DNA of 64,000 nucleotides from an uncultured delta proteobacterium (GTDB lineage: Bacteria; Desulfobacterota; Binatia; Binatales; Binataceae). Below are positions 12,342-28,345 of this stretch, piece after piece. The notes below the pieces were generated by a model, which made no database searches, had not been told where the DNA came from, and saw only the letters and a list, made by a program, of their open reading frames with translations. The translations under genes and the position numbers were made by a program. Numbering within the stretch: the first letter of the stretch is position 1; the number at the start of each line of letters is the position of its first letter. The DNA lies in contig CAVQAR010000036.1 in assembly GCA_963710425.1 (NCBI GenBank), positions 34,416-98,415 on the forward strand, read 5' to 3'.

Positions 12342-12393
12342 CGGAGCTTTGTTGATCGGCGCGGCTGACGGTCGAATCTGCGGTCAGCGATGG

Positions 12394-14187: not shown

Positions 14188-15386
14188 GCGGCCATCCTCG
14201 ACGCGATCATCTCGAGCGCGATCGTCGCCACGCGTCCCGCCGCGCCGGGCGATCCGAGCTTCTCGCGCAACGACTTCAGCGCCGCGACCGTCTCCGCGCG
14301 GATCGTATCACTAAGCAGCGGCTCGGCCGCGCGCACCAGCTTCTCAACGGTGACGTCACGCTGTATAAGTTCCGGCACGATTTGCCGGCCCGCCAGGATA
14401 TTCGGCATTCCGATAAAATCGACTCCCTTCACCAGCATCCGGCCTAGGATATAGGTAAGCGGCGACGCTTTGTAGGCAATCACCTCGGGGCATCCGAGCA
14501 GCGCGGTCTCGAGCGTAGCAGTCCCCGACGCGACAATTGCCAGCTCGCTCGCCGCGACGATGTTGTAGGTGTCGTTCTCGACAATCTTGATTCCCGCCAG
14601 ATCTGTTCGTCCCACCTCGGCCAGCTCGGCCTGCGTCAACGTCGGCGCCAGCGCGAGCGCTATTTCGAGATTGTGATCGCGCGCGACAATCCGCGCCGCC
14701 TTGACCATCGGATCGAGCAGGTAGCGAACTTCGGCGCGGCGGCTTCCCGGCAGGATCGAAATGATCCGCGCGCGCGGCGCGAAGCCATGGCGCTTCAGCG
14801 TTTCATCGCGATTTTGCGCCGCGGCGACGAGGTCTAACAACGGATGCCCGACGAATGAAACCCGCTCGCCGGCGCGATGGAACAATTCGGCCTCGAACGG
14901 CAGCACCACCGCCAGCCGACCCGCGCGCTCGACCAGCTTGTCGACCCGACCGCGCCGCCACGCCCACACCTGCGGCGTAATATAGTAGAGCACCGGAACG
15001 CCGTTGCGCCGTGCGGTCCCGGAGAGAATCAGGTTAAACTCCGCATAGTCAATCAGGATCAGTAGGTCCGGCTTCTCGCGCCGGATGATTTGCCGCAGGG
15101 TGCGAAACGCGCCGACAGTCCGCCCAATGGTCGACGCCAGCTCCGAAAGTCCAAGCCCATGGATGTCCTCCATCCGGACGATCGCGCGCACGCCGACCGC
15201 GCGCATTTTCTCGCCTGCAATTCCGAACAGCTCACACGACGGATCGCGCGCGAGAATTTCCCGGGCCAAATCGCCGCCGTGAAGATCCCCCGACGCCTCG
15301 CCGGCAACGATCATGATGCGGCCTCGGCGCGCGGTATCTTTCAAGCGCTCGTCGGGCCGCGGTGGCGCTTCGGCATTCAACGGCAT
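14184..15386 (-). CDS. lpxB: Lipid-A-disaccharide synthase (start approximate)
   Basis: IVAGEASGDLHG, LIDYAEFN, YYITPQVWAWR, LPFE, FVGHPL, LPGSRRAE, SGTATLE. Confidence 0.96.
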   Translation of the reverse strand: MPLNAEAPPRPDERLKDTARRGRIMIVAGEASGDLHGGDLAREILARDPSCELFGIAGEKMRAVGVRAIVRMEDIHGLGLSELASTIGRTVGAFRTLRQIIRREKPDLLILIDYAEFNLILSGTARRNGVPVLYYITPQVWAWRRGRVDKLVERAGRLAVVLPFEAELFHRAGERVSFVGHPLLDLVAAAQNRDETLKRHGFAPRARIISILPGSRRAEVRYLLDPMVKAARIVARDHNLEIALALAPTLTQAELAEVGRTDLAGIKIVENDTYNIVAASELAIVASGTATLETALLGCPEVIAYKASPLTYILGRMLVKGVDFIGMPNILAGRQIVPELIQRDVTVEKLVRAAEPLLSDTIRAETVAALKSLREKLGSPGAAGRVATIALEMIASRMAA

Positions 15387-15441: not shown

Positions 15442-15906
15442 TCAATTGTCCTGCGCGAAATTCCGACGGATGGCGTCACGTATCTGATCGACCGGCGATC
15501 CCTGCTCCGACATCCGCTTCGCCAGCAGCGCCTCGCCAGTGCAAATTTCGCACGACGCGCCATGCGTGCCGCGATAACAGTCGAGCAGGTTCTGATGCCC
15601 TTCCGCCTTGTCGCAACCGCAATAGCAATGCAGTTGCGCCAACAGCGCCGGGTTCTTCTCCGCGAATTTGTACGCTTCCTTTACCGGACCGACGAACTGG
15701 TTTGGATCGAGCGTCAGCCGCGGCTGCGCGTCTTTCGGCGCAGGAGCGTCCGCAGCCTCTGCCCGGCCCGTACAGCAGCAATGACCGGCGACGCACATTG
15801 CTCCGCGCGCATTGCCATTCACACTCGAACCGCCGAGCACCGGCCACATGTAGGCCAGCGCCAGGATCGCCGCGAACGAGGTGCCGAGAATTATTACGCG
15901 TCTCAT
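15442..15906 (-). CDS. PCYCGC/CYCXC-motif metal-binding protein, copy A
   Basis: LHCYCGC...GHQNLLDC...HGASCEIC; N-terminal hydrophobic anchor; extra MCVAGHCCC segment. Confidence 0.8.
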   Translation of the reverse strand: MRRVIILGTSFAAILALAYMWPVLGGSSVNGNARGAMCVAGHCCCTGRAEAADAPAPKDAQPRLTLDPNQFVGPVKEAYKFAEKNPALLAQLHCYCGCDKAEGHQNLLDCYRGTHGASCEICTGEALLAKRMSEQGSPVDQIRDAIRRNFAQDN

Positions 15907-16502
15907 GCTGCACCGCCCTTGTTCAGAGTTTTTTTGACGTCATCGACGATGTCCTGCGCTTTCACGACTTCGCCATTATATTCGCGGATTAGCCGGCCGT
16001 CCGGCCCAATCAACATCATATCCACCATATGGCCAACTGAACCATCCGGCTCGACTTGCCTGCTCAACTTGAATCCCGCCAGCGCCTGATCGACCTCCGC
16101 GGGCCCACCTGTCAGAAAATACCATCCCTTCTGATCCGCGCCCTGCTGACGCGAGTAGTCGAGCAATTGCTTCGGGCCGTCATGCTCCGGATCGACCGAA
16201 ATCGAAACGATCGTCACCTTCGAACCGATGTCGCTGCCCAGCCGCAGCGCGACGTTTTCCAACTTCGCCGTTTCCATCAGGCACGGCCCCGGGCACGAGG
16301 TGTAGATGAAGTCGACTACCATCGGCTTGCCCTTGAGCGACGTCAGCGCCACGGTGTTGCCGTTCTGATCGACGAGCTTGGCGTCGGTGAGAACGCTCTC
16401 GGCGGCCGCGCTTCCGGAATCACGATGGCATCCAGCGATCGCGAATAGACTAAACATCATTACTACAATGGCGAGAGATCTGAGATTACGGTGATTACTC
16501 AT
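15903..16502 (-). CDS. SCO1/SenC family copper chaperone lipoprotein, copy C
   Basis: Lipobox IAGC; LVDQNG; DFIYTSCPGPC (CxxxC); ISVDPEHD; FLTG; conserved His in VGH. Confidence 0.92.
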   Translation of the reverse strand: MSNHRNLRSLAIVVMMFSLFAIAGCHRDSGSAAAESVLTDAKLVDQNGNTVALTSLKGKPMVVDFIYTSCPGPCLMETAKLENVALRLGSDIGSKVTIVSISVDPEHDGPKQLLDYSRQQGADQKGWYFLTGGPAEVDQALAGFKLSRQVEPDGSVGHMVDMMLIGPDGRLIREYNGEVVKAQDIVDDVKKTLNKGGAA

Positions 16503-16539
16503 CTATATATCCTTCAATAGTTAGTTGGCATTTGATTAC

Positions 16540-17406
16540 TCAATGGGGCGGCGGCGTATTAGCCAGTACCGCCGACCATCCGAGCACCGCTCCCAACAGC
16601 GCGCATTCCACCGCAACATTGCGAATCAGCGACGCGCGCGCCGACGACTCATCTACCGACCCTACCAGTCGATACCGGTTGTAGCCGCCGATCAATATCA
16701 CCGTGGCCGCCGTGCCGACCTTCCAGAGCAGCGTGCGTCCATAGATCGAATTCACCAGCAGATCGAGTTGTACTCCCAGTACCTCCCACGCTCTGATCAC
16801 GCCGGTGACGAGTAAAGCGGCGACTGACCATCCTGCAATCTGAGATACCCGCGAAGTCGCCGACCGCAGCCAATCTGCTCCCGCATGTCCGTACGTCGCG
16901 CCTATCAGCAATGAGACCAGCGCGCCAATCCACATCCCCGCCGCCGCCTGGTGTATAAATTGAATCGTGATCGCGAATGCGCCCTTGTCCACGGCGTGAC
17001 TCGTAATGCTTTGAAACGCGAGCAGAGCCGCCGAGATGACGAACATCAGCGCTGTGGCGAGCCGCCCCGGCGCGGGAATCCACGCCACCAGAGCCAATAG
17101 TAGCACGGTCGCCAGCCTCCACGTCCATACGCGGCCGGCGAAGGTTTCGCGCATTATTTGCGGCATCGACGGCAGCACTTCCCTGAAGGTCGAGTCCGCC
17201 ATCCCAGCGCCGATGGACCACAGCCTGAGCGGCGACATCACCAACACGATCAGCGCGAGCACCCGCCAAAGCACTAGCATGCTTCGCACCGATACGTCGC
17301 CAGCGACGACCGCACGCGGCGCCGCAAACAACGCAAAAGCTGTGGTTCCGAAGATCAGCACCTGCGCCCCAACCAACGGCCACGCGAATATCGGTTGCGG
17401 AATCAC
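16540..17406 (-). CDS. copD: CopD family inner-membrane copper transport protein
   Basis: Multi-TM; SITSHA, HQAAAGMWIG, TGVIRA, YGRTLLWK, IGGYNRY; GTG start overlaps the copC stop. Confidence 0.88.
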   Translation of the reverse strand: MIPQPIFAWPLVGAQVLIFGTTAFALFAAPRAVVAGDVSVRSMLVLWRVLALIVLVMSPLRLWSIGAGMADSTFREVLPSMPQIMRETFAGRVWTWRLATVLLLALVAWIPAPGRLATALMFVISAALLAFQSITSHAVDKGAFAITIQFIHQAAAGMWIGALVSLLIGATYGHAGADWLRSATSRVSQIAGWSVAALLVTGVIRAWEVLGVQLDLLVNSIYGRTLLWKVGTAATVILIGGYNRYRLVGSVDESSARASLIRNVAVECALLGAVLGWSAVLANTPPPH

Positions 17407-17783
17407 GATCCGCCGTTGGCGACCGTAAACGTGTACGAGCCCTGGGTGTGATGCGTATCGATGCAAACGACCGCCCACTTGACCTGGTAGTCGCCGGGTT
17501 TCAGTGGCGGGACCTTGACCGACAAACGGATGCCGTCGTCGCTGACTTGCGCTGGGCCATCGGCTTCGTTGGTGCCGTCGGCACCCACTACTTCCAGCTT
17601 GGCGAACAGCTTCTCGATCGGTGCGTCAAACTTGATCACGACCTCGGGCGGCGACGAGGCAACCTTTTGTCCTGCCGATGGAGTTTCCTGTTCGGGAAAC
17701 GAATGCGCCCGCGCTACCATCGGATTACTCAGTCCAATAGCCAGTAGCGCTGACGCGTATAGCCATATAGCCGATTTCTTCAC
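17403..17783 (-). CDS. copC: CopC periplasmic copper-binding protein
   Basis: Signal peptide then ARA|HSFP (N-terminal His); PGDYQVKWAVVCIDTHHTQGSYTF (DxH ligands). Confidence 0.92.
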   Translation of the reverse strand: MKKSAIWLYASALLAIGLSNPMVARAHSFPEQETPSAGQKVASSPPEVVIKFDAPIEKLFAKLEVVGADGTNEADGPAQVSDDGIRLSVKVPPLKPGDYQVKWAVVCIDTHHTQGSYTFTVANGGS

Positions 17784-18706
17784 TCGCCGGGTCCTCGATT
17801 AATGGTCCAGTTGCCCCACTTCGGGAAAAACGAATCGTAAAATATGTCGAGCAATCCGATTATCGTGGCGTGACTCGCGGGCACCGTCGCATTGTTCAGC
17901 GCGAACTGAGTACCCAGACTCAATTCGTAGTGATAGCTGACGTAGGCGATGCCCGGCGTCGCCAGGATAGTCGGAAAGGTCTGGCCCGACGGCCCTCGGA
18001 CTAGCTGATCGTAGTTGAATTCCGTGAACAGGAAGAGATTTCGGAACGGCCATTTGAGTCCGATGTCCTGAACGTTGTTGCTGAGGTACGGCAGCGAATA
18101 TTCGATCACTACGTCGGCAAACAGATCGTGGCTGGTTTGCCCGCCCAAGGCCGGCAGATAGCCGACATCGCCTTGAAATCCCAACGGCCGCAGATACTTC
18201 AGCACCGGCAAATTGGGAAGATCGCCCAAGGCCTTCTCCCACAAGAACTCCGGACCGAGGCTGGTATGGCTCTGATCCCGGATGTCCTTGTTGCCGACGG
18301 GGAGATCGGCGACCAACGCAATCGATGTGAGAAACTCGTGTTCGAGTGAATAGTAAAAGGCCCATTTCGCCGCCACTTCCGGATTGTCCACGCCTTCGTG
18401 GCTCGGGCCCTGGTACGGTGAAACATGATGCCACGCCGTTCCGGCCGCGAGACTGAATCTCGGCATATAGTTGTCGTCGATCCAAAGGACCTTCTCGCCT
18501 GAGAATCCGATCGAGTAGTCATTGGCGTCGCTGCTCTTGACCCACGACGGTTCGAGAATGTCGAGCTCATTCGCCGGAGTCGGGTCCTCGGCGATAAGCG
18601 GTTCCAGGAACACGTAGTCCCCGACGACTCCATGTGCGTGCGCCGCGCTCGCGCGCATCGCAAACACTATCATCAAAGTTAGAACCAGCTTCCTTCGCAC
18701 AAACAT
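17780..18706 (-). CDS. Secreted, probable outer-membrane beta-barrel protein directly upstream of copC (start approximate)
   Basis: Signal peptide AAHA|HGVVGD; alternating aromatic/hydrophobic beta-strand pattern; stop overlaps the copC start. Confidence 0.55.
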   Translation of the reverse strand: MFVRRKLVLTLMIVFAMRASAAHAHGVVGDYVFLEPLIAEDPTPANELDILEPSWVKSSDANDYSIGFSGEKVLWIDDNYMPRFSLAAGTAWHHVSPYQGPSHEGVDNPEVAAKWAFYYSLEHEFLTSIALVADLPVGNKDIRDQSHTSLGPEFLWEKALGDLPNLPVLKYLRPLGFQGDVGYLPALGGQTSHDLFADVVIEYSLPYLSNNVQDIGLKWPFRNLFLFTEFNYDQLVRGPSGQTFPTILATPGIAYVSYHYELSLGTQFALNNATVPASHATIIGLLDIFYDSFFPKWGNWTINRGPGE

Positions 18707-18754
18707 CCTCCCGAGCCGCGTCAGGCCGATCAATTGACTACTTCCGACGGGCGA

Positions 18755-19201
18755 TTATTCCGCCGGCAGCCCGGCGATCGAGCGTAAATACACGAACAGC
18801 GCGCCCGCGAACAACGCCATGTCCAGCACTAGCTCCAGCCACATCCTTGGTCGCGACGGCGCGCCGGCTCCGAAACAGCCGCAGTCGAGCGTGAGACCTC
18901 GAAACAGCGCGGACGCCAAGGCTGTGAAAAATATTGCAGAGAGTAAAATGATCGCGAGCGCACCGATGCGCCTGGTCCGCGGCCCCAGCAGCAAGAGGCC
19001 GCATGCAATCTCAAATGGCGGCAGCGCGAGAGCCAGCAAGCTTATAAACACCGCCGGCAGGATCCCGAATGCGGCGATGCTGTCCGCGAACTGCAGCGGA
19101 TCGCGGATCTTGTCGATGGCCGCGTAGATGAAAATCCCGGCCATGGCCAGGCTGACCGCCAGCACTGCATAGGCGTGAAGCCGGTTGTCGGATACCGTCA
19201 T
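18755..19201 (-). CDS. MauE/DoxX family membrane redox protein
   Basis: GIFIYAAIDKI, LPPFEIACG, GLTLDCGCFG. Confidence 0.88.
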   Translation of the reverse strand: MTVSDNRLHAYAVLAVSLAMAGIFIYAAIDKIRDPLQFADSIAAFGILPAVFISLLALALPPFEIACGLLLLGPRTRRIGALAIILLSAIFFTALASALFRGLTLDCGCFGAGAPSRPRMWLELVLDMALFAGALFVYLRSIAGLPAE

Positions 19202-19788
19202 CGTTCGCTCCCCGCAGACGCCGGCAGCCCCGCGGCCGACCATGCATCCCATCCTCCGGTGAAGACGCGGACATTGCCGAAGCCAAGACTCAGCAACGCG
19301 TTTGCGACGAGGCGGCTGTCATGACAGTCGCCGCCGGAGCAGTACACGATGATCGGCTTGTCATGGGCGGCCTGCAGCACTCCTGCCAGCCGTCTATAAT
19401 CTTTCGGGAAGTCGTCTCGCGCGAGATTGAGCGCTCCCGGAACGTGTCCCTGCTCGAAGAAGACGGACGGGCGGGCATCAAGGATGAGTGCACTCTTGCT
19501 CTGGACAGCTGAACGGAATTCATCGAGTCCGACCGTCGCCGCCGGTGCGAGCTTGAACGGCGGCGCCGCGACCAGAGTCGTCAGCTCGGCATCGAACCGC
19601 TGCTCCGGCGTTTGATAGACGATAGGAAGTGGAGCGCGTGAAAAATGGTTCATCACGAGTCCAGCCGCCAGGGACGCGATTGCGAGCAGGGAAACGCCGC
19701 CGAGATCGCGCAAAATTCGCAATCGGAGACTCTTTGCTCGAGGCAGCCGGGCTGAATCGGGAGTGCCAATCGATACTGTTGAAGTCAT
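19198..19788 (-). CDS. Membrane-anchored rhodanese-like domain protein
   Basis: N-terminal TM; ILDARP..F.QGHVPGA.N; IIVYCSGGDCHDS; VFTGGWDAW; ATGA overlap with MauE. Confidence 0.9.
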   Translation of the reverse strand: MTSTVSIGTPDSARLPRAKSLRLRILRDLGGVSLLAIASLAAGLVMNHFSRAPLPIVYQTPEQRFDAELTTLVAAPPFKLAPAATVGLDEFRSAVQSKSALILDARPSVFFEQGHVPGALNLARDDFPKDYRRLAGVLQAAHDKPIIVYCSGGDCHDSRLVANALLSLGFGNVRVFTGGWDAWSAAGLPASAGSER

Positions 19789-20221
19789 CTGAGTGAGCGG
19801 GAAGGCCGGTTGCCAATTACTTCGCTTCCATTCAATGCTGCCCGGCGGTCGTAACGAATCGCCATGAACGAGGCGCGATCACGTTCTTGCTCCGCCTGCA
19901 GCTCATATTCATTGCGCTCATGCTCCGCGATATTGGCGTTTTCCTGGTCCGCAGTGACGCGGCATTGCGAAATTTCGCGATCGCGCTCGTGATTTACCCC
20001 TGCATCTGTGATTCAGCGGAAGCGTCAGGAGTTGCTGCTATGCGCGCCATCTCATCATGGCTACGAGATCAGGGCTTCGTCGATGCACCGTTTCTCGCTC
20101 GCATCGAGTGCTCGTCTCTGTTTTTCCAACTGTGCGAGCCTTGGATCCGAGTCGCTTTCCGGATGTTTGAAGAAGCGCATCCAGCCAACAGGATGATTGC
20201 GACTAAGACGAGCTTCTTCAT
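19785..20221 (-). CDS. Hypothetical helical lipoprotein, broken by at least two indels (end uncertain)
   Basis: MKKLVLVAIILLAGC lipobox; coding-like continuation in other frames (DPRLAQLEKQRRALDASEKRCIDEAL; NHERDREISQCRVTADQENANIAEHERNEYELQAEQERDRAS). Confidence 0.5.
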
Positions 20222-20255
20222 AGAAGCGGTTGCACTGGAGAATTGCTCTTGAGCG

Positions 20256-20807
20256 TCAGGGCTTGGCGTTAGGATCCGCCGCAGACTTTTGCGGTAACAG
20301 CGGTAACACCGCGTCCGACAGGCTCTTTTCAGTAACCGTTGTTTGGTCGGGCGTGAGCTTTGCGCGCACCACTCCATTTCCATCCACGACAACCGTCATC
20401 GGAAGAGCGTCAGGGGTCCCGAAATCGTTGACTTTGGCGTCATCGAGCATCGCCGCAGGATAGCTGTATGATTGCATAACCTTGGTTACATCGGATCGGT
20501 CGTGTGGACGGTCGGCGCTCACGCCGATCATCTCGAGACCTTGGCCGTGATACCGCCGGTAGAAAGCGTCGAGAGCCGGCATCTCCTCGCGGCAAGGCGG
20601 ACACCAAGTGGCCCAAAAGTTCACGATTACGACTTTTCCGCGCTGCGCACTTAGATCGAACGTTTGTCCGTCCAGTTCAGGCACGTCCAGCGCGGGAGCA
20701 GGGTTGCCGACGGTTGCGGAGGCGAACGCCAAGACGGCTCCATAAATGATCGCGAGCAACTCCCGCACGCCAGCAAACCACGAGTATGTCGTGCGCATCT
20801 TTGGCAT
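20256..20807 (-). CDS. TlpA/ResA-like thiol-disulfide oxidoreductase (start uncertain)
   Basis: VVIVNFWATWCPPCREEMPAL; LPMTVVVDGNG. Confidence 0.92.
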   Translation of the reverse strand: MPKMRTTYSWFAGVRELLAIIYGAVLAFASATVGNPAPALDVPELDGQTFDLSAQRGKVVIVNFWATWCPPCREEMPALDAFYRRYHGQGLEMIGVSADRPHDRSDVTKVMQSYSYPAAMLDDAKVNDFGTPDALPMTVVVDGNGVVRAKLTPDQTTVTEKSLSDAVLPLLPQKSAADPNAKP

Positions 20808-20810
20808 TGG

Positions 20811-21275
20811 TCAATTTCCCCCGGCGTATTGCCTGCGGATCGCATCGCGTATCTGATCTACCGGCGAACCCTGCCCTGCCAGCTGCTGGGCCATCAACGC
20901 CTCGCCCATGCAGATCTCGCACTTCGAGCCGTGATCGCCTCGATAACAGTCGAGCAGATTCTGATGGCCGTACTCCCGGTCACATCCGCAGTAGCAATGC
21001 AGTTGAGCCAGCAGCGCAGGATTCTTCTCCGCAACCTGGTACGCCTGCTTTGCTGGCCCGACGAACTGATCGGGATCGGGTGTCAAGCGTTCGTTTGCGC
21101 CGATAGCCGCGACAGTCTCTGCATGCCCCCGTCGGGCGCAGCAGCAATGACCCGCGATACACATCATGCCGCGCGAGCTGCTATTTTCCATCGATGAAGC
21201 ACCAAACGTCGGCCACAGATATGCCACTGCCAGAACGGCCGCCGCCGTAGAGCCCAAAATTATCGCTCGCTTCAT
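20811..21275 (-). CDS. PCYCGC/CYCXC-motif metal-binding protein, copy B
   Basis: LHCYCGC...GHQNLLDC...HGSKCEIC; MCIAGHCCC segment; paralog of 15442..15906. Confidence 0.8.
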   Translation of the reverse strand: MKRAIILGSTAAAVLAVAYLWPTFGASSMENSSSRGMMCIAGHCCCARRGHAETVAAIGANERLTPDPDQFVGPAKQAYQVAEKNPALLAQLHCYCGCDREYGHQNLLDCYRGDHGSKCEICMGEALMAQQLAGQGSPVDQIRDAIRRQYAGGN

Positions 21276-21282
21276 GTGGCTC

Positions 21283-21873
21283 TCAACTGTTGTTCAGCGT
21301 TTTCTTGACGTCCTCGACGATATCCTGAGCCTTTACGGCTTCGCCGTTGTATTCGCGCACTATCCGCCCATCTGGCCCGATCAACATCATGGAGATCAGG
21401 TGCCCAACCGAACCGTCCGGCTCGATTTGGCGGCTGAGCTTGAAACCGGCCAGCGCCTTGTCGACGTCCGCCGGTCCTCCCGTCAGGAAATACCATCCCT
21501 TCTCATCTGCGCCCTGCTGATGCGAGTAATTGAGCAACTGTTTGGGTCCGTCATGTTCGGGATCGACCGTGATCGAAACCAGCGTCACTTTCGAACCAAG
21601 ATCGTTGCCCAGCCGCAGCGCTACGTTCGCAAACTTTGCGGTCTCCATCAGGCAGGGACCGGGACATGTCGTGTAGATGAAATCCACCACCATCGGCTTG
21701 CCCTTGAGCGACTCGAGCGAGAGCGTGTTGCCATTCTGATCGACGAGCTTGGTGTCCGTAAGGACACTAGCGCCCTCCGCGGTTGAGTCGCTGTGGCATC
21801 CAGCAGCCGCAAACAAGCTTGAAATTACTATTGCCGTGATTCCGATAGATCTGAGACTTCGATGAATACTCAT
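21283..21873 (-). CDS. SCO1/SenC family copper chaperone lipoprotein, copy B
   Basis: Lipobox AAGC; DFIYTTCPGPC; VGH; close paralog of 15903..16502. Confidence 0.92.
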   Translation of the reverse strand: MSIHRSLRSIGITAIVISSLFAAAGCHSDSTAEGASVLTDTKLVDQNGNTLSLESLKGKPMVVDFIYTTCPGPCLMETAKFANVALRLGNDLGSKVTLVSITVDPEHDGPKQLLNYSHQQGADEKGWYFLTGGPADVDKALAGFKLSRQIEPDGSVGHLISMMLIGPDGRIVREYNGEAVKAQDIVEDVKKTLNNS

Positions 21874-21953
21874 ATCTGCATCTCTTAGTAGTTATAATTC
21901 TCTAGTTGCCGTTAAGCGCCAACACATCAATGTGGTCCACTGTTTTTGTCGCA

Positions 21954-22949
21954 TCAGAAGCTGTAGCTCAGAATCAGCTTGGTCGCGTAGGCCGCAGTCA
22001 GCTGATAGCCCCTGATGTTTTGAAAAACCGGGACCTCTATGTCTGCGTAAGCCCGGATGACCCCGATTTTGATCTCGCCTCCCGGCGCAAGGATCAGACG
22101 GGTGTAGCCGCTGGCCCCTGGATTTGCGTTATTTCCTGTGTCCCGCGTACGGTCTGAGGCGAGAAAGGTGAGCATCGGAGCGAGTTCCTTGAGAAAACCA
22201 ACTTTGCCGAAGTCGTAGTACGCTCCTACTGCACCATCTACTTCCCTGCCCGGTGTGTATTGGTCCTGTGCCCACAGCGGCAAATCGTAGTTGACCTGCA
22301 CGAAGTAGTTGAAGGGGCGCTCCTTGAAAGTCAGCGGCAAACTCCCCAACTTCGTCGGGATCGTTCCTAGGTGGTAGGCGCCCAGCAGTAGATCGGTGCT
22401 TCCGGTGCCAATCTGCGTATCCCGATCGTAGGGTGGATAGGTCCATTGGCCGCTTGGAACCTTGACTCCCGCCATAAGTCCGGTCGACATGTCCTCCGAT
22501 AGACCCGTATACATCCCCTGGATCCGAATATCGCCGATAGAGTTATCCTGGAACCAGTGAATATCGGAGTTGTTACCGTTATAAGCACCCTTGTAATTAC
22601 GCTCCCAATACGGCACCTCGAGCATCACTCCCCAATCTCGATTGAACATGTACTGAACGCCGGCCTCCATGAAGTTCGTCCGGATGTACTTGTCGTTATT
22701 GTAGAACTCGGAGGCAGGCTGGGTCGCCTTAAAGTTTATGTACTGATCCATGTATTCATATTGAAACCACACCTGGCCGCCGGACCCCTGAGGAAACAGT
22801 GATGCGGTTCCTACCTCGAAGATTCCACATCCGCATGCACACGCCCAAACCAGGCCCGGCGTTAGGCCGATCACTAAAATCGTCGCTAGCAACACGCGCC
22901 TGGCCCTCTCACCGAAAGCCTGGCGCTCCGAAATAAGATTCCTCTGCAT
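21954..22949 (-). CDS. Putative outer-membrane beta-barrel protein with N-terminal CACGCG motif
   Basis: Signal peptide LVWA|CACGCG; GDIRIQG and QIGTGSTDLLLG resemble the MetA-pathway/transporter barrel family; C-terminal ILSYSF (terminal Phe). Confidence 0.65.
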   Translation of the reverse strand: MQRNLISERQAFGERARRVLLATILVIGLTPGLVWACACGCGIFEVGTASLFPQGSGGQVWFQYEYMDQYINFKATQPASEFYNNDKYIRTNFMEAGVQYMFNRDWGVMLEVPYWERNYKGAYNGNNSDIHWFQDNSIGDIRIQGMYTGLSEDMSTGLMAGVKVPSGQWTYPPYDRDTQIGTGSTDLLLGAYHLGTIPTKLGSLPLTFKERPFNYFVQVNYDLPLWAQDQYTPGREVDGAVGAYYDFGKVGFLKELAPMLTFLASDRTRDTGNNANPGASGYTRLILAPGGEIKIGVIRAYADIEVPVFQNIRGYQLTAAYATKLILSYSF

Positions 22950-22961
22950 AAACGTCCACCC

Positions 22962-22977
22962 CGGCCACATGTGGCCG
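22962..22977. promoter_or_regulatory. Perfect 16-bp palindrome CGGCCACATGTGGCCG next to the SD-like GGGGTGGA of the CACGCG barrel gene
   Basis: The palindrome is seen directly; a regulatory role is inferred. Confidence 0.35.
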
Positions 22978-23046
22978 CACCGGATGCTCGCGAGGCCATC
23001 CAGCCTGCAAGCAAGCATGTATTGACGAAAATGTGAGAATTCCTTG

Positions 23047-23364
23047 CTAGGAAAGCAGCTTGGGCGGCGGCGGATCGGGAGATTCGGCAAAGTTACATTT
23101 CAGAATGGGAACGAATTGAGCGAAGGTTTCATGCGAAAGAATTCGCGTGCCCATTTCCGGTTGCGCCGGGCGGGCAATCAATATCGCTGGCGCGCTGTCG
23201 AGCGATTGCAGCGGATGACAGATGTCCATCGAGATGCTCGGCCCTGAACGATCGGCAATGACGATCAGACCGATCGACGGCAGACTCGCCATCATTATGA
23301 CCAATGCCATCGCCGCGGCCAGCTGCCGCATCGAAGTTCGATCAATAGTCAATGCAGCAGTCAT
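23047..23364 (-). CDS. Small exported-type protein with proline-rich C-terminus (DUF2946/CutF-like leader candidate)
   Basis: Hydrophobic N-terminus, central DICH, C-terminal SPDPPPPKLLS; ATG immediately follows the SCO stop. Confidence 0.55.
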   Translation of the reverse strand: MTAALTIDRTSMRQLAAAMALVIMMASLPSIGLIVIADRSGPSISMDICHPLQSLDSAPAILIARPAQPEMGTRILSHETFAQFVPILKCNFAESPDPPPPKLLS

Positions 23365-23365
23365 C

Positions 23366-23983
23366 TCAGCTTCTGCCGCGCGCCTGATCGACGTCGGCGG
23401 CCACTGAATCGGGACTGACATCGAGCGCGTTGTACTGCCTCAACTGATGGCCGTCGGGACCAAGCAGAAATGCGGATATCGAGTGAGTAATCGTGCCGTC
23501 ACCCTCGCGCGTCCGGCGCAGCTTGAACTGCGCGAGCACCTGGTCGATTTGCGCCGGCGGTCCGGTCAGGAAAATCCAGCCGGGGCCGTCCGCATCGTGG
23601 CTCTTCGCATACTTCGCGAGCGCTGCCGGACTGTCATGCTCGGGATCGAGCGAGATCGAAACGATGGTAACGTCGGCTCCCAGGGCGGGTCCGAGCTGAT
23701 GCGCGATCGCCGCCATCTTCGCCGTCAACATCGGGCAGGTCGAGGCGCACGACGTGTAAATGAAATCGATCAGCACCGGCTTGCCTTTCAGCGACGCGAG
23801 CGAGACCGCCGCGCCATGCTGATCGACAAGACTCACGTCAGGCAGGCAATTATTCCCGTTAGCGGCCGGATAGTCGCCGCGCGCCTCGCGATCGCCGCAT
23901 GCCGACAGCGTAAGGATTGCCACCAGACTGACTAGTCCCAGGGCGCGGCGATACTGCCTAATGGTGTGGCTATCAAACATCAA
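23366..23983 (-). CDS. SCO1/SenC family copper chaperone lipoprotein, copy A (divergent)
   Basis: Lipobox LSAC; DFIYTSCASTCP; ISLDPEHD; FLTG; ITHS His ligand. Confidence 0.9.
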   Translation of the reverse strand: MMFDSHTIRQYRRALGLVSLVAILTLSACGDREARGDYPAANGNNCLPDVSLVDQHGAAVSLASLKGKPVLIDFIYTSCASTCPMLTAKMAAIAHQLGPALGADVTIVSISLDPEHDSPAALAKYAKSHDADGPGWIFLTGPPAQIDQVLAQFKLRRTREGDGTITHSISAFLLGPDGHQLRQYNALDVSPDSVAADVDQARGRS

Positions 23984-24005
23984 GTTGCTATAGCTACTCG
24001 AATAG

Positions 24006-24443
24006 TCAGAAGAGCGCGTGTCCGGCTTTTAGGTCAGCGCTCTTGATACGCACGATTCCAGAGTCGTCTTGATGCGGCAGGCTCGCTGGCACGCATGAGG
24101 CCTTGCCGTCCGTCATGTGAGCGATTGGATAGTGGTTCCCGCACACCCGGCAGATCAATTCGTTGCCAACTACCCGGTAGCCGCGATGGAACGCGAAGCA
24201 TTGCCGGCACGCGTCGAACACCGAGTGGACTTTACCGTCGTTGCCGCGCGCCAGGATGAAGCGCAGACGCCTGCCCGCGTCATCGGTGTAGCAAAATAGC
24301 TTCGCGCTGCCCGGACGTAGCGAGGACACGTTGACCGCGACGTCGCCCGGGCCGGGCACCATCGTGCAGTCCGAGTTCGCGGTGAACATGAGAAATGCCG
24401 CGCCGGCGGCCAGGATCACACCGCCTAAAATCTTGAGCCTCAT
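24006..24443 (-). CDS. DUF2318-type predicted Fe-S/metal-binding membrane-anchored protein (start approximate)
   Basis: FDACRQC...GY...ICRVCGNHY...SCVP pattern; N-terminal TM. Confidence 0.75.
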   Translation of the reverse strand: MRLKILGGVILAAGAAFLMFTANSDCTMVPGPGDVAVNVSSLRPGSAKLFCYTDDAGRRLRFILARGNDGKVHSVFDACRQCFAFHRGYRVVGNELICRVCGNHYPIAHMTDGKASCVPASLPHQDDSGIVRIKSADLKAGHALF

Positions 24444-24486
24444 CGTACGCATTGCGCTCCAATGCTGTCGCAGCACACTGCGGACG

Positions 24487-25449
24487 TCAAGGCGCGACCG
24501 CGTCGGTCAACATTACTTCCTTGATCCGTTCGGTCAGTTCCATCACGCGCAGTCCGTCCTCGGCGCTGACCGCGGGCGTCGATCGGCTGCGCACCGAATC
24601 GACGAACGCTTTGACCTCGTCCGCCAGCGGATCGCCTTCGCCGAAATCGATCTGCTCGGCCGAAATTGTCGGGAACTGCGCGCCGCGCACCGGCGGAGTT
24701 TTGCGATACATCTGGATGCTGCGCGCCTCGTAATCCACCGAGATGTACGCATCGGGCTGAAAAAAGCGAATTTTGCGCTCGCGCCGCGCCGACACGCGGC
24801 TGGACACGAGATTTGCGATCAACCCGCTCTGGAAGCGGACGCGCGCGTTGGCGAGATCGATCCGGTCGGTGAGAATTGCGACCCCGACCGCCTCCAACGA
24901 CGCGACTTCCGACGGCGCCACCGACAGGATCACGTCGAGGTCGTGCACCATCAAGTCGAGCACCACATCCACGTCGGTGCCGCGCTCGGTGAACGGCGCG
25001 AGCCGATGGCATTCCACGAAGCGCGGATTTTTCACAATCGAATGCAGATGGACGACCGCTGGATTGAATCGCTCGAGGTGGCCGATCTGTAGAATGCGCC
25101 CGCTGGCCGACGCGAGCGCCGCCAGTTCGTGAGCCTGCATCAGCGTCTCGGCCATCGGCTTTTCCAACAGCACGTCGATGCCCGCTTTCAGCATCGCAGC
25201 CGCAATCTCGTGATGCGTCACACCCGGCGACGCAATCGTTACGAGATCCACTTTTCCGATTAGCATCCGATAGTCCGCGAGCGGCGTCGCGTCAACTTCC
25301 TTCGCCAGCGCCCCCGCACGCTCAGTATCGATATCCACGATGTGCGCGAGCTTGATGCCTGCGAGCGCGGCGTACTTGCGCGCGTGGAGAGTCCCGAGCC
25401 GTCCCGCGCCAACTACAGCGGCCCGCAGCTCAGCCAACGGTTTCGGCAT
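24487..25449 (-). CDS. Gfo/Idh/MocA oxidoreductase, probable GnnA-like UDP-GlcNAc 3-dehydrogenase
   Basis: VVGAGRLG, LLEKPMA, QIGHLERFNP, DVVLDLMVHDLD; follows lpxA-lpxI, the usual gnnA position. Confidence 0.75.
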   Translation of the reverse strand: MPKPLAELRAAVVGAGRLGTLHARKYAALAGIKLAHIVDIDTERAGALAKEVDATPLADYRMLIGKVDLVTIASPGVTHHEIAAAMLKAGIDVLLEKPMAETLMQAHELAALASASGRILQIGHLERFNPAVVHLHSIVKNPRFVECHRLAPFTERGTDVDVVLDLMVHDLDVILSVAPSEVASLEAVGVAILTDRIDLANARVRFQSGLIANLVSSRVSARRERKIRFFQPDAYISVDYEARSIQMYRKTPPVRGAQFPTISAEQIDFGEGDPLADEVKAFVDSVRSRSTPAVSAEDGLRVMELTERIKEVMLTDAVAP

Positions 25450-26257
25450 AGCCGTATATCGTCACGTTCTTCGCGCGCGCGAGTTCGAGCGTGCGATCGC
25501 TTTCGAGTATCAGCGCAACGCCGGCTTCAAGGCCAATCATCGACGCGCCGATCTCCGCGAGTAGTTCCACCGTCGCCGGGCCGATCGCGGGGCGGTCGAA
25601 GCGCATGTCCTGTCCCGGTTTCGCGGTCTTGGCCACCACCAGTCCCGCGCCGACCAGCGCGGCCGCGCGACGAAGCGCGGCGTCGGTTCCTTCAAGCGCC
25701 TCGACTGCCGCCACCATTCCGTCACGAACCGCGACCGTCTGCCCGATATCGTAGCTGCCGAGCCGGCGCGCAATCTCGAATGCGAGATCGAGATCGCGGC
25801 GTTGCGATGCAGTCGGTTCGGGACCGGCGCCGACGCCAGCGCGCGCGAGCCAATGCGCAATCATCGGCACCGGATCGATCATCTTGATGTTTTCGGCTTC
25901 GACTTCGCGCGCGACGCCGCGCAGCACGGCGTCATCGCTGAAGCGCCCGATCCCCGCGAGCATCTTGAGCGCGCGCGCGTCGGGTGCGAACGAGTCTTTC
26001 AGGCGCGCGCGTGAGATGCCGCCGGCCATCGCGGCTTCCGCGACGCCCGCGTTTTTGAATACGTCGACAATTTTTTGCAGCTCGCCAACTTTGATCCAGG
26101 TGACTTCGTCGATTACTGAGTCGAGCGCGCGATCGCTTTCATTGAGGTGCGCGACCGCGACGATTTTTATTCCGCGTTCGCGGGCGGCGCGCGCAACTTC
26201 GAGCGGGAAGACGCCGTTGCCTGCGATTAGGCCGAGCTTATTCACGCTCGCGGCCAA
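25430..26257 (-). CDS. lpxI: UDP-2,3-diacylglucosamine diphosphatase LpxI
   Basis: LGLIAGNGVFP, DIGQTVAV, AVEALEGTDA, KPGQDMRFDRPAIG. Confidence 0.93.
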   Translation of the reverse strand: MAASVNKLGLIAGNGVFPLEVARAARERGIKIVAVAHLNESDRALDSVIDEVTWIKVGELQKIVDVFKNAGVAEAAMAGGISRARLKDSFAPDARALKMLAGIGRFSDDAVLRGVAREVEAENIKMIDPVPMIAHWLARAGVGAGPEPTASQRRDLDLAFEIARRLGSYDIGQTVAVRDGMVAAVEALEGTDAALRRAAALVGAGLVVAKTAKPGQDMRFDRPAIGPATVELLAEIGASMIGLEAGVALILESDRTLELARAKNVTIYGYAETVG

Positions 26258-28169: not shown

Positions 28170-28345
28170 ACAGCCCGGAAAGCCTCCTGTTGACTACCTA
28201 TCTGGACGCGCGAGACACATTCGCGACGCGCCATTCGTTGCCACGTGAAATATACACAATAGTACCCCATCGAGCATTAAATCCAGTTGCACGCGCCCAA
28301 ATCGCCGTTAACTTGTCGAGAAATCATCAGGCCTGATTCGAGCAG

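What the first reader, a model, noticed from the sequence alone, without database searches (positions are those of the whole stretch)
15442..24443. 15-gene Cys-rich copper/redox cluster embedded inside the lipid A operon
Seen: fifteen co-directional, tightly packed genes lie between the gnnA-like gene and lpxB, many with ATGA/GTGA overlaps. Order: DUF2318, SCO-A, Pro-tailed leader-like ORF, CACGCG barrel, SCO-B, HCYCGC-B, TlpA, lipoprotein, rhodanese, MauE/DoxX, HG barrel, CopC, CopD, SCO-C, HCYCGC-A. No CopA/Cus efflux, multicopper oxidase, oxidase subunit, PCuAC or transcription factor is present. Established: CopC/CopD mediate Cu uptake, SCO proteins load Cu into cuproenzymes, TlpA reduces SCO, and lpxI/gnnA and lpxB are normally near-adjacent. 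Inference: this is a complete envelope-spanning pathway for copper acquisition, thiol-based relay and loading. I do not recognise this combination as a described system. If the host is Binatia, copper membrane monooxygenases reported in that group are candidate clients. Placement in the lipid A run could couple envelope biogenesis and copper status.
Basis: partly seen in the sequence, partly recalled or inferred. Interest (0 to 1): 0.8.

Follow-up and report, generated by a model that had tools for sequence, protein, structure and literature searches.

The report
Copper-handling gene island inside lipid A operon
An uncultured soil bacterium (Candidatus Binatus) carries a conserved, modular block of about 15 envelope genes, most likely for taking up copper and loading it into respiratory oxidases, wedged into its lipid A operon; three of its gene families (two outer-membrane channels and a proline-tailed leader peptide) are unannotated.

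Summary
One of them, the small lipoprotein gene, is broken by frameshifts. bamA and kdtA in the same window are also frameshifted, so this is probably assembly error.

In ten genomes of ten other Binatia families, lpxI-GFO-lpxB-msbA are directly adjacent. In 19 of 24 Binatus genomes an island was seen at the GFO-lpxB junction, with modular content; the rest were not checked there or their contigs end. The block is therefore a real, lineage-specific insertion.

The copper reading is supported by context. Relatives of the Cys-tipped barrel in other phyla sit behind DUF2946 (CruR/CutF-type) leaders and beside TlpA, PCuAC, SCO or a multicopper oxidase. All three SCO genes found in this genome lie in the island. 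The genome has at least three heme-copper oxidase operons with a recognisable subunit I (plus one more CuA-type subunit II), no PCuAC and no multicopper oxidase.

The copper monooxygenase (CuMMO) client idea is not supported: none was found here, and only 5 of 24 congeners have one.

Both barrels model as 12-stranded channels of the COG4313/FapF type. The "Pro-tailed ORF" resembles a CruR/CutF-like arrest leader but fails DUF2946 membership.

Verdict: a new variant of known copper operons. Function is inferred, not shown.

The parts
24487..26257 (-). Upstream flank: lpxI (25430-26257) and a GFO/IDH/MocA oxidoreductase (24487-25449). These are the last lipid A operon genes before the island.
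   Evidence: Pfam LpxI_N/LpxI_C and GFO_IDH_MocA. In ten outgroup Binatia genomes this GFO gene is followed directly by lpxB.
24006..24476 (-). FtrD-like/DUF2318 membrane-anchored protein with two CxxC pairs
   Evidence: PF10080, E 1.7e-17. First island gene in most related loci. The same domain occurs in Campylobacter FetA, alongside YHS and thioredoxins (PMC10783030).
23366..23983 (-). SCO-A, an SCO1/SenC lipoprotein (CASTC motif)
   Evidence: PF02630, E 2.7e-29; lipobox LSAC read in the sequence.
23047..23364 (-). 'ProTail' leader-like ORF (105 aa): N-terminal hydrophobic segment, invariant I-C-H-P-L-Q, C-terminal PDPPPPKLLS-stop
   Evidence: No Pfam hit. The family alignment shows the invariant Cys and the PPP tail ending 4 residues before the stop. 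It always lies directly upstream of an outer-membrane barrel gene.
22950..23046 (-). 97-nt spacer between ProTail and the barrel, with two local hairpins ahead of the GGGGTGGA ribosome-binding site
   Evidence: Fold (not better than shuffles, z = -0.19). The hairpin positions are conserved across ten same-type loci. Second-type loci carry a GC hairpin followed by a U-run.
21954..22949 (-). CAC barrel: 12-stranded outer-membrane beta-barrel whose predicted mature N-terminus is Cys-Ala-Cys-Gly-Cys-Gly
   Evidence: AF2 mean pLDDT 82. Best PDB matches are the COG4313 channel 4rl8 and FapF. The C-A-C-G-C motif is invariant across phyla. More than 3000 homologues exist, none annotated.
20811..21873 (-). 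SCO-B (21283-21873) plus CYCXC-B (20811-21275) pair
   Evidence: PF02630, PF13798 and NF041379. Paralogous to the SCO-C/CYCXC-A pair at 79% and 65% identity.
20256..20807 (-). TlpA/ResA-like membrane-anchored thioredoxin (WCPPC)
   Evidence: AhpC-TSA, Redoxin and Thioredoxin_8; below the NCBIfam TlpA/ResA cut-offs. It follows the CAC barrel in 26 loci, including loci in other phyla.
19857..20218 (-). Coiled-coil lipoprotein gene, frameshifted in this assembly
   Evidence: tblastn of the intact 134-aa orthologue hits two frames; three-frame read. Intact orthologues are present in 15 loci.
18755..19788 (-). Membrane-anchored rhodanese (19198-19788) plus MauE (18755-19201, CGCF motif), overlapping by 4 nt
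   Evidence: PF00581 and PF07291. The pair is conserved in 14-15 loci. MauE CXC-Phe thiol oxidase: bioRxiv 10.64898/2026.03.05.709764.
16540..18706 (-). HG barrel (17780-18706; predicted mature N-terminus His-Gly), CopC (17403-17783; mature N-terminus His), CopD (16540-17406)
   Evidence: AF2 model with pLDDT 69, a barrel of the FapF/COG4313 class. A22/A24/H25/G26 are conserved. PF04234 and PF05425. The trio is conserved in 8 loci fetched with the CAC barrel, plus the five island loci and G006. In barrel-less congeners it is headed by its own ProTail.
15442..16502 (-). SCO-C (15903-16502) plus CYCXC-A (15442-15906) pair, overlapping by 4 nt
   Evidence: PF02630 and PF13798. It lies immediately upstream of lpxB in most congeners.
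12394..15386 (-). Downstream flank: lpxB (14184-15386) and msbA (12394-14187)
   Evidence: Pfam LpxB, ABC_membrane/ABC_tran; start codon chosen by comparison with congeners.

Best explanation
The island is a modular envelope system for copper acquisition and cuproprotein maturation. It was inserted into the lipid A operon in the Binatus/Binataceae lineage.

Proposed working (inferred unless marked shown):
- Two TonB-independent 12-stranded outer-membrane channels admit copper. One has a mature Cys-Ala-Cys-Gly-Cys tip, suited to Cu(I). The other has a mature N-terminal His, suited to Cu(II), as in CopC.
- CopC passes Cu(II) to the inner-membrane protein CopD.
- Three SCO lipoproteins, two of them translationally coupled to CYCXC/PCYCGC cysteine-rich proteins, receive copper and load CuA/CuB centres of the genome's heme-copper oxidases. 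The CYCXC proteins possibly stand in for the absent PCuAC.
- TlpA keeps the SCO and client cysteines reduced.
- MauE, a DsbB-like quinone-linked CXC thiol oxidase, together with its periplasmic rhodanese and the DUF2318 CxxC protein, sets the thiol/disulfide (or Cu(II)/Cu(I)) balance.
- Channel expression is probably gated after transcription by the Pro-tailed leader. Its PPP motif four codons before the stop, its exported Cys-His motif and the structured spacer resemble the copper-sensing arrest peptides CruR and CutF.

Shown here: gene content, synteny, the insertion, barrel folds, motif conservation, cross-phylum neighbourhoods, and the genome inventory of clients.
For: - Seven recognised copper or thiol-redox families are packed co-directionally with 4-nt overlaps.
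- The island is conserved at the same junction in Binatus MAGs and is built from recurring modules. Second copies of the core lie elsewhere in some genomes.
- Outgroup families have GFO directly next to lpxB.
- The CAC barrel's neighbours in other phyla are DUF2946-barrel-TlpA-PCuAC (Ferrovum JA12), DUF2946-barrel-TlpA::PCuAC fusion, a Pro-tailed leader-barrel-2xSCO (L055) and a multicopper oxidase. In Binataceae they also include a YHS protein and an orphan COX2-like cupredoxin.
- All three SCO genes detected in this genome are in the island.
- The genome has five COX2-domain hits. Three operons pair a subunit II with a subunit I motif, two of those with a canonical CuA motif; a fourth CuA-motif subunit II stands beside a large unflagged ORF.
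- PCuAC is absent from all 41 Binatia genomes searched, while PCYCGC is in 25 of 25 Binatus genomes and 3 of 16 others.
- Both barrels model as 12-stranded channels, with weak PF13557 membership in their families.
- The ProTail family keeps an invariant Cys and a 'PDxPPPK + 3 residues' end, and always precedes a barrel. G006 has one ProTail before each barrel.
- Published DUF2946/CruR operons contain Sco, PCuAC, CopC and AhpC_TSA genes (PMC9426467). The CutF mechanism is described.
Against:
- ProTail has a single conserved Cys rather than CXXC/CxxxC, and gives no DUF2946 hit.
- The spacer fold is no better than shuffled sequence.
- Some CAC-barrel homologues sit beside NikR plus a TonB receptor, a CDF exporter, a MarR regulator, or SoxA/TsdA-type cytochromes. 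The barrel may therefore not be copper-specific.
- CYCXC is a family with selenoprotein members, which points to redox chemistry rather than metal carriage.
- PCuAC is also absent from Binatia that lack CYCXC, so substitution is not demonstrated.
- The genome is incomplete (65% estimated) and error-prone. Statements such as 'all SCO genes' and 'no CuMMO' are therefore provisional.
Confidence: 0.6

Rival explanations
1. Copper (or silver) tolerance island. The proteins would sequester and buffer periplasmic copper under excess, and the leader would switch the genes on at high copper, as CutF does for the CutO oxidase.
For: - CopC and CopD were first named as resistance proteins.
- The CutF-type leader is an inducer under copper excess.
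- Cys-rich periplasmic proteins could act as sinks.
- One homologous barrel lies next to a multicopper oxidase and another next to a CDF exporter.
Against: - The island contains no CopA/Cus exporter and no multicopper oxidase, and the genome assembly shows no multicopper oxidase.
- An outer-membrane channel lets metal in, which does not fit a tolerance role.
- SCO and TlpA are assembly factors (PMC6669012).
- CopC here is the His1/DxH Cu(II) type that is paired with the importer-like CopD (PMC11923076, PMC13344008).
Confidence: 0.15
2. A thiol/disulfide or sulfur-relay maturation system for envelope proteins that is not specific to copper. It would be a MauE-centred oxidative folding pathway with TlpA/SCO/CYCXC as thioredoxin-fold partners, or it would handle another thiophilic metal such as Zn, Ni or Hg.
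For: - MauE replaces DsbB in E. coli.
- SCO, TlpA, rhodanese and CYCXC belong to families with redox-active Cys or Sec.
- One ProTail-barrel pair lies beside MauG-like and SoxA/TsdA-like cytochromes.
- A ZIP transporter precedes ProTail in five loci, and NikR lies next to one barrel.
- The DUF2318 plus thioredoxin combination occurs in an iron-uptake cluster.
Against: - CopC and CopD are copper-specific families.
- PCuAC, a COX2-like cupredoxin, a multicopper oxidase and DUF2946 recur next to the barrel.
- The rhodanese-MauE module is optional within the island.
Confidence: 0.17
3. Chance juxtaposition or assembly artefact: unrelated genes joined into the lipid A operon by misassembly.
For: The assembly has frameshifts in bamA, kdtA and the island lipoprotein gene. 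The estimated completeness is 65%.
Against: The same junctions and gene order are found in many independent MAGs, including single-contig and megabase-contig assemblies.
Confidence: 0.02

Closest known systems
CruR (Bp2923, DUF2946)-headed copper operons of Bordetella and other Proteobacteria, and CutF of the Rhodobacter capsulatus cutFOG operon (PMC9426467; bioRxiv 10.1101/2022.11.11.516240 and 10.1101/2025.02.05.636593)
   Same: - A small exported ORF stands first in line, with a Cys motif and a C-terminal proline arrest motif close to the stop.
- A long structured spacer separates it from an envelope copper gene.
- The downstream genes include Sco, CopC and AhpC_TSA/TlpA types.
- In Ferrovum and another proteobacterial MAG, the gene in front of the homologous barrel is a DUF2946 protein.
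   Different: - There is no PF11162 match.
- One invariant Cys (ICHP) replaces CXXC/CxxxC.
- The tail is PDxPPPK rather than RAPP.
- The gated gene is a small 12-stranded barrel, not a TonB-dependent transporter or a multicopper oxidase.
- The direction of regulation is unknown.
TlpA-ScoI-PcuC pathway of CuA assembly in Bradyrhizobium diazoefficiens (PMC6669012)
   Same: A membrane-anchored TlpA-like thioredoxin and SCO proteins are encoded together. CuA-type oxidase subunits are present in the genome as clients.
   Different: - No PcuC/PCuAC is found anywhere in 41 Binatia genomes.
- Each of two SCO genes is instead coupled to a CYCXC/PCYCGC protein.
- There are three SCO paralogues.
- The genes are not next to any oxidase operon.
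copBCD part of the Pseudomonas cop/pco operons, and the CopC-CopD importers YobA-YebZ (E. coli AZY) and YcnJ (B. subtilis) (PMC11923076, PMC8689200, PMC13344008)
   Same: The order is outer-membrane barrel, then CopC, then CopD, with overlapping genes. CopC has an N-terminal His and a DxH motif.
   Different: - The barrel gives no CopB (PF05275) hit. Its family belongs weakly to the PF13557/COG4313 class.
- No CopA multicopper oxidase accompanies it.
- In some congeners it is headed by a ProTail leader.
COG4313 outer-membrane channel (PDB 4rl8; Pfam PF13557) and FapF
   Same: Both are 12-stranded barrels with an N-terminal segment ahead of the first strand. TM-scores are 0.62/0.75 for the CAC barrel. 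A few family members score on PF13557.
   Different: - The window's proteins do not reach PF13557.
- They carry invariant metal-ligand tips (CACGC; His-Gly) that are unknown in COG4313 channels.
- Their neighbourhood is metal-related rather than aromatic catabolism.
MauE/MauD of methylamine dehydrogenase maturation, and MauE as a general DsbB substitute (bioRxiv 10.64898/2026.03.05.709764)
   Same: A four-helix MauE with a C-G-C-F active-site motif is encoded in the same block as a TlpA/MauD-like thioredoxin.
   Different: Here MauE is translationally coupled to a membrane-anchored periplasmic rhodanese. No methylamine dehydrogenase genes are present.
Campylobacter fetMP-fetABCDEF metal-uptake cluster (PMC10783030)
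   Same: A DUF2318 domain with two CxxC pairs, a YHS domain (present in related Binataceae loci) and membrane-associated thioredoxins are encoded together in an uptake cluster.
   Different: There is no Ftr1/P19 and no ABC transporter. DUF2318 is a stand-alone single-anchor protein. The surrounding genes are for copper rather than iron.

Membership tests
CruR/CutF (DUF2946, PF11162) copper-sensing leader peptides | Sequence match to PF11162 | tested here: not met
   No hit for the window protein at E<=1. Of 24 aligned members, only the proteobacterial one (L056) hits, at 9e-5.
CruR/CutF (DUF2946, PF11162) copper-sensing leader peptides | CXXC or CxxxC copper-binding motif in the exported part | tested here: not met
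   The Binataceae members keep one invariant Cys (I-C-H/Q-P). Among 146 profile hits shorter than 200 aa, 137 have cysteine but no CxxC/CxxxC pair and 7 have such a pair. Verrucomicrobial relatives do have HPCxLC.
CruR/CutF (DUF2946, PF11162) copper-sensing leader peptides | C-terminal proline-rich arrest motif close to the stop | tested here: met
   P-D/E-x-P-P-P-K/E/R followed by three residues and the stop is conserved across the family.
CruR/CutF (DUF2946, PF11162) copper-sensing leader peptides | First position ahead of an envelope copper gene, separated by a long, structured spacer | tested here: inconclusive
   ProTail always lies directly upstream of a barrel. The spacer is 97 nt with positionally conserved hairpins, but the fold energy is not better than shuffles. 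In this window it is the third gene of the island, not the first.
CruR/CutF (DUF2946, PF11162) copper-sensing leader peptides | Copper-dependent ribosome arrest controlling the downstream gene | not testable with these tools
   This needs reporter or pulse-labelling experiments.
SCO1/SenC copper chaperones | PF02630 above its cut-off, with CxxxC and a distal His | tested here: met
   Scores of 102, 88 and 88 bits against a cut-off of 22.8. CASTC / CPGPC and the conserved His were read.
TlpA (NF047696) / ResA thiol-disulfide oxidoreductase | Equivalog-level score and a CxxC motif | tested here: inconclusive
   WCPPC is present. TlpA scores 84 bits against a cut-off of 230, and ResA scores 93 against 170. 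It is a member of the broad AhpC/TSA-Redoxin family only.
CopC / CopD | PF04234 and PF05425 above their cut-offs | tested here: met
   74.9 bits against 23.3, and 57.1 against 32.1. CopD is below the NCBIfam equivalog cut-off (121 against 195).
CYCXC family (seleno)protein (NF041379) / PCYCGC (PF13798) | Model score above the cut-off, and the CYCGC motif | tested here: met
   NF041379 scores 112 bits against 90 for CYCXC-B. PF13798 scores 44.9 and 41.7 against 25. HCYCGC was read.
MauE (PF07291), DsbB-like thiol oxidase | Pfam match, and a CXC motif followed by Phe in the periplasmic loop | tested here: met
   95 bits against 27. LDCGCFG was read. Oxidase activity was not tested.
COG4313 / PF13557 outer-membrane channels | 12-stranded barrel fold, and a PF13557 sequence match | tested here: inconclusive
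   The fold criterion is met: 4rl8 gives E 4.6e-9 and TM 0.62/0.75, and 5.5e-5 for the HG barrel. The window proteins give no PF13557 hit. Only 3 of 41 and 5 of 29 family members do.
CopB/PcoB outer-membrane copper protein (PF05275) | Pfam match | tested here: not met
   No hit for either barrel at E<=0.01, or at E<=1 in the family scans.
Lipid A (Raetz pathway) operon | lpxA, lpxI, lpxB and msbA in one co-directional run; GFO-lpxB adjacent in relatives | tested here: met
   Pfam hits. Adjacency in ten outgroup genomes.

The most novel reading that the evidence does not exclude
Two unannotated families of small 12-stranded outer-membrane barrels form a previously undescribed TonB-independent route for copper across the outer membrane. 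One family is tipped by a processed Cys-Ala-Cys-Gly-Cys N-terminus and has more than 3000 homologues in at least five phyla. The other is tipped by an N-terminal His. Each is gated by a proline-tailed, single-cysteine arrest peptide that is a new branch or analogue of CruR/CutF. In Binatus, which lacks PCuAC, the CYCXC/PCYCGC proteins would be the missing partner of SCO in building CuA centres.
Probability: 0.4. Interest if true: 0.75.

Novelty: new variant of a known kind. Interest (0 to 1): 0.6.

Why it matters
How copper crosses the outer membrane is known for only a few TonB-dependent receptors (OprC/NosA, BfrG) and general porins.

- A widespread, leader-gated, cysteine-tipped small channel would add a new entry route.
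- It would also give a function to three unannotated protein families, and perhaps to the PCYCGC/CYCXC family.
- Binataceae are abundant, uncultured soil bacteria with several terminal oxidases. Knowing how they obtain copper bears on their ecology.
- The fixed position inside the lipid A operon is an unusual and easily traced genomic marker. It raises the testable possibility that outer-membrane assembly genes and copper-channel genes are read through together.

Tried and rejected
- CuMMO as client. A PF02461 search found none in this genome and only 5 of 24 congeners with a hit, so there is no correlation with the island.
- Multicopper oxidase as client. None was found in the genome.
- Homology between the two barrels by BLASTP. 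None was detectable. They are linked only through fold and weak PF13557 hits in their families.
- Profile searches of both barrel families against PDB sequences found nothing.
- ProTail as a true DUF2946 member is not supported by Pfam. A profile search of 1.84 billion representatives returned a small, self-contained family of about 158 clusters rather than merging with DUF2946.
- Spacer RNA structure: the minimum-free-energy fold is not better than shuffles.
- The promoter/terminator scan found nothing above chance and no intergenic terminator.
- The exact-sequence look-up of the window's own barrel is not on record.
- PCuAC-versus-PCYCGC complementarity. PCuAC is absent from all Binatia searched, including those without PCYCGC, so the test cannot show substitution.
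- Mobile-element scars at the junctions. The junction gaps are only 10 and 55 nt, which leaves no room for them.

Full report
**1. What is in the sequence**

The window is G000:C36:34416-98415 of a 4.3-Mb, 40-contig MAG. Record titles of the closest loci name Candidatus Binatus / Binataceae, class Binatia.

All genes of interest are on the minus strand. The run reads skp, fabZ, lpxA, lpxI, a GFO/IDH/MocA oxidoreductase, then fifteen ORFs, then lpxB, msbA, kdtA.

- FtrD-like/DUF2318
- three SCO1/SenC proteins
- two PCYCGC proteins, which reach the NCBIfam 'CYCXC family (seleno)protein' cut-off
- a TlpA/ResA-like thioredoxin
- rhodanese, MauE, CopC and CopD

Three ORFs match no family: a 105-aa ORF ending PDPPPPKLLS, and two ~310-330-aa proteins that look like barrels.

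Gene spacing is tight. There are four-base overlaps at five junctions, and the other gaps are 1-97 nt. No intergenic terminator stands out. No exporter, multicopper oxidase, oxidase subunit, PCuAC or regulator family is present.

Two corrections are needed:
- The 49-aa 'lipoprotein' is the head of a ~130-aa coiled-coil lipoprotein that is intact in 15 related loci. Here it is split across frames.
- bamA (two shifts) and kdtA (one shift) in the same window are also broken. This, together with the 65% completeness estimate, points to assembly indels rather than gene decay.

**2. The insertion is real and specific to the lineage**

Ten genomes from ten other Binatia families have lpxI-GFO-lpxB-msbA directly adjacent, with 20-90 nt between GFO and lpxB. 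An island fills that junction in 19 of the 24 Binatus genomes sampled. In three genomes the junction was not fetched, and in two the contig ends at lpxB.

The content is modular:
- [FtrD-like, SCO-A]
- [ProTail -> CAC barrel, TlpA, lipoprotein, sometimes a fourth SCO type plus an orphan COX2-like cupredoxin, sometimes a YHS protein]
- [rhodanese, MauE]
- [HG barrel, CopC, CopD]
- zero to two [SCO, CYCXC] pairs

The full 15-gene set of this window recurs in at least three other MAGs (L028, L032, L047). A minimal version (FtrD-like, ProTail, CAC barrel, TlpA) occurs in L043.

Congeners without the CAC barrel have ProTail directly in front of the HG barrel-CopC-CopD trio. One genome, G006, has two ProTail genes, one before each barrel. 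Second copies of the core lie elsewhere in some genomes, away from lpx genes.

G+C in the core of the island is 0.55-0.58, against 0.62-0.65 in the flanks. The junction gaps of 10 and 55 nt leave no room for mobile-element scars.

Misassembly and chance juxtaposition can be dismissed.

**3. The three unknown families**

*CAC barrel.*
- AlphaFold2 on a 41-sequence alignment gives mean pLDDT 82 and a 12-stranded barrel.
- The best solved matches are the COG4313 channel 4rl8 (E 4.6e-9, TM 0.62/0.75) and FapF.
- The family has more than 3000 members, none annotated. A few distant members score on PF13557.
- Its hallmark is an invariant A/G | C-A-C-G-C right at the predicted signal-peptidase site (small residues at -3 and -1). 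It is kept in Binatia, Verrucomicrobia, Proteobacteria (Sideroxydans, Ferrovum, Acidithiobacillus), Abditibacteria and Bacteroidota.

*HG barrel.*
- The model is weaker (pLDDT 69) but is again a barrel of the FapF/COG4313 class.
- The family has 446 homologues, none annotated; 5 of 29 score weakly on PF13557.
- A22-x-A24 | H25-G26 is conserved, so the mature protein probably starts with His. The adjacent CopC does the same (VARA|HS).
- The two barrels show no BLASTP similarity to each other, and no relatives with solved structures at the sequence level.

*ProTail.*
- It is about 104 aa, with an N-terminal hydrophobic segment, an invariant I-C-(H/Q)-P-(L/I)-Q, and a conserved P-(D/E)-x-P-P-P-(K/E/R) followed by exactly three residues and the stop.
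- A profile search of 1.84 billion representatives finds only about 158 clusters, all of this size and pattern.

**4. Why copper**

Besides the recognised families, the neighbourhoods of the CAC barrel outside Binatia are informative:
- Ferrovum sp. JA12: DUF2946, barrel, TlpA-like, PCuAC in a row.
- Two proteobacterial MAGs: DUF2946 (23.6 bits, at the cut-off), barrel, and a TlpA fused to PCuAC.
- A verrucomicrobial MAG: a Pro-tailed HPCxLC leader, barrel and two SCO genes.
- An abditibacterial genome: a leader-like ORF, a Met-rich DUF7282 protein, barrel and TlpA.
- One locus has a multicopper oxidase next door.

Exceptions exist: NikR plus a TonB receptor, a CDF exporter, a MarR regulator, TonB receptors with ExbBD, and, in one Binataceae genome, MauG-like and SoxA/TsdA-like cytochromes. 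The barrel may therefore serve more than one thiophilic cargo.

Within this genome:
- All three SCO genes found lie in the island.
- There are five COX2-domain hits. Three operons pair a subunit II with a subunit I motif, two of those with a canonical CuA motif; a fourth CuA-motif subunit II stands beside a large unflagged ORF.
- No multicopper oxidase was found, and no AMO/PmoA.
- PCuAC is absent from all 41 Binatia genomes searched. PCYCGC is present in 25 of 25 Binatus genomes and in 3 of 16 others. This is compatible with CYCXC acting as the partner of SCO, but does not prove it.

**5. How it most likely works**

Shown: content, order, conservation, folds, motifs and the client inventory.

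Inferred:
- Copper enters through the two barrels, whose processed tips offer thiolate ligands (Cu(I)) or His-amine ligands (Cu(II)).
- CopC hands Cu(II) to CopD. These are importer-type proteins (PMC11923076, PMC13344008, PMC8689200).
- The SCO lipoproteins, kept reduced by TlpA, metallate CuA/CuB sites as in Bradyrhizobium (PMC6669012). CYCXC proteins would act as copper donor or reductant.
- MauE was recently shown to replace DsbB through a CXC-Phe motif (bioRxiv 10.64898/2026.03.05.709764). The motif is present here as CGCF. MauE would work with its translationally coupled periplasmic rhodanese and the DUF2318 CxxC protein to set the thiol/disulfide balance.
- The trio DUF2318 + YHS + thioredoxins echoes FetA/FetE/FetF of the Campylobacter metal-uptake cluster (PMC10783030).

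Regulation: the island has no transcription factor, but ProTail has the architecture of the copper-sensing arrest peptides CruR and CutF.
- The features it shares are export signal, Cys motif, a proline arrest motif next to the stop, and a structured spacer.
- In proteobacterial homologues the gene in that position is a DUF2946 protein.
- In same-type loci the spacer keeps two hairpins just ahead of the ribosome-binding site. In second-type loci it has a GC hairpin followed by a U-run, like an attenuator.
- The direction of the response (on or off with copper) cannot be read from sequence. The single-sequence fold is not significant.

**6. Comparison with what is known, and novelty**

Roy et al. 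(PMC9426467) already list Sco, PCuAC, CopC, YcnI and AhpC_TSA genes in DUF2946-headed operons. The logic of the island is therefore a variant of a known kind.

What is not described, as far as the searchable literature shows:
- the CxCxC-tipped and His-tipped small barrels as the outer-membrane component, instead of a TonB-dependent receptor or CopB
- the single-Cys PPP leader family, which fails DUF2946 membership
- the coupled SCO-CYCXC pairs
- the rhodanese-MauE pair in a copper context
- the fixed insertion inside the lipid A operon

Other agents of this scan reached similar readings on related loci. Those are leads, not evidence. The points I re-tested are noted in the field for earlier findings.

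**7. Verdict**

- Observation: confirmed.
- Interpretation: partly supported.
- Best explanation: copper acquisition and cuproenzyme maturation under leader-peptide control, confidence about 0.6.
- Rivals: copper tolerance (0.15), metal-independent or other-metal thiol system (0.17), artefact (0.02).
- Interest: 0.6. This is a solid, conserved and partly unannotated system with clear experiments to do, but it is built mostly from known modules and has no functional data.

Noticed in passing
window 28327-30774 (bamA) and 11086-12368 (kdtA/waaA): Both essential genes are split across reading frames when compared with intact orthologues. bamA runs through frames -2, -3 and -1, with breaks near 28950 and 28460. 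kdtA has a break near 11990-12006. These are probably assembly indels and would explain the 65% completeness estimate.
   Followed up: partly
window 19857-20218: The island's coiled-coil lipoprotein gene is split over several frames. Orthologues of 122-146 aa are intact in 15 loci.
   Followed up: yes
L036:12250-12852 and equivalents in L038-L040, L044, L046-L048, L051, L086 (G016): An orphan 200-aa COX2-like cupredoxin (PF00116, E 3.8e-11) follows a fourth SCO type in many Binataceae islands. Its CuA loop is rewritten to C-D-S-S-C-G-C-A-T-V-C-M. It is absent from this window.
   Followed up: partly
G017:C75:56475-56732, G039:C70:11787-12092, G031:C1:409027-409317, G010:C8:12622-12879, G026:C10:18415-18645: PCYCGC hits in relatives contain in-frame TGA codons. 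These may be selenocysteine forms of the CYCXC (seleno)protein family, or frameshifts or sequencing errors.
   Followed up: no
L062:6157-11020: In one Binataceae genome the ProTail-CAC barrel pair follows a MauG-like di-heme peroxidase, a metallophosphoesterase and a SoxA/TsdA-type cytochrome c, with no TlpA or SCO. This hints at a sulfur or other redox link for some barrels.
   Followed up: no
L036-L040, about 1 kb upstream of the barrel: A ZIP-family transporter gene sits directly upstream of ProTail, preceded by a B12-type radical SAM gene. A class II ribonucleotide reductase lies downstream.
   Followed up: no
G000:C20:53422-54491: A third PCYCGC gene of this genome lacks the GHCCC motif. 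It lies next to a DedA-family membrane protein and a sensor kinase / sigma-54-type response regulator pair.
   Followed up: partly
L060:10010-11800 (Abditibacteriaceae chromosome): The TlpA next to the barrel is 62% identical to the Binatus TlpA, while the barrel itself is 42% identical. This suggests transfer of the module between phyla.
   Followed up: no
L033, L036-L040, L048, L061: spacer after ProTail: In second-type loci the spacer holds a strong GC hairpin followed by a U-rich run, like an intrinsic terminator or attenuator, between the leader and the barrel.
   Followed up: partly
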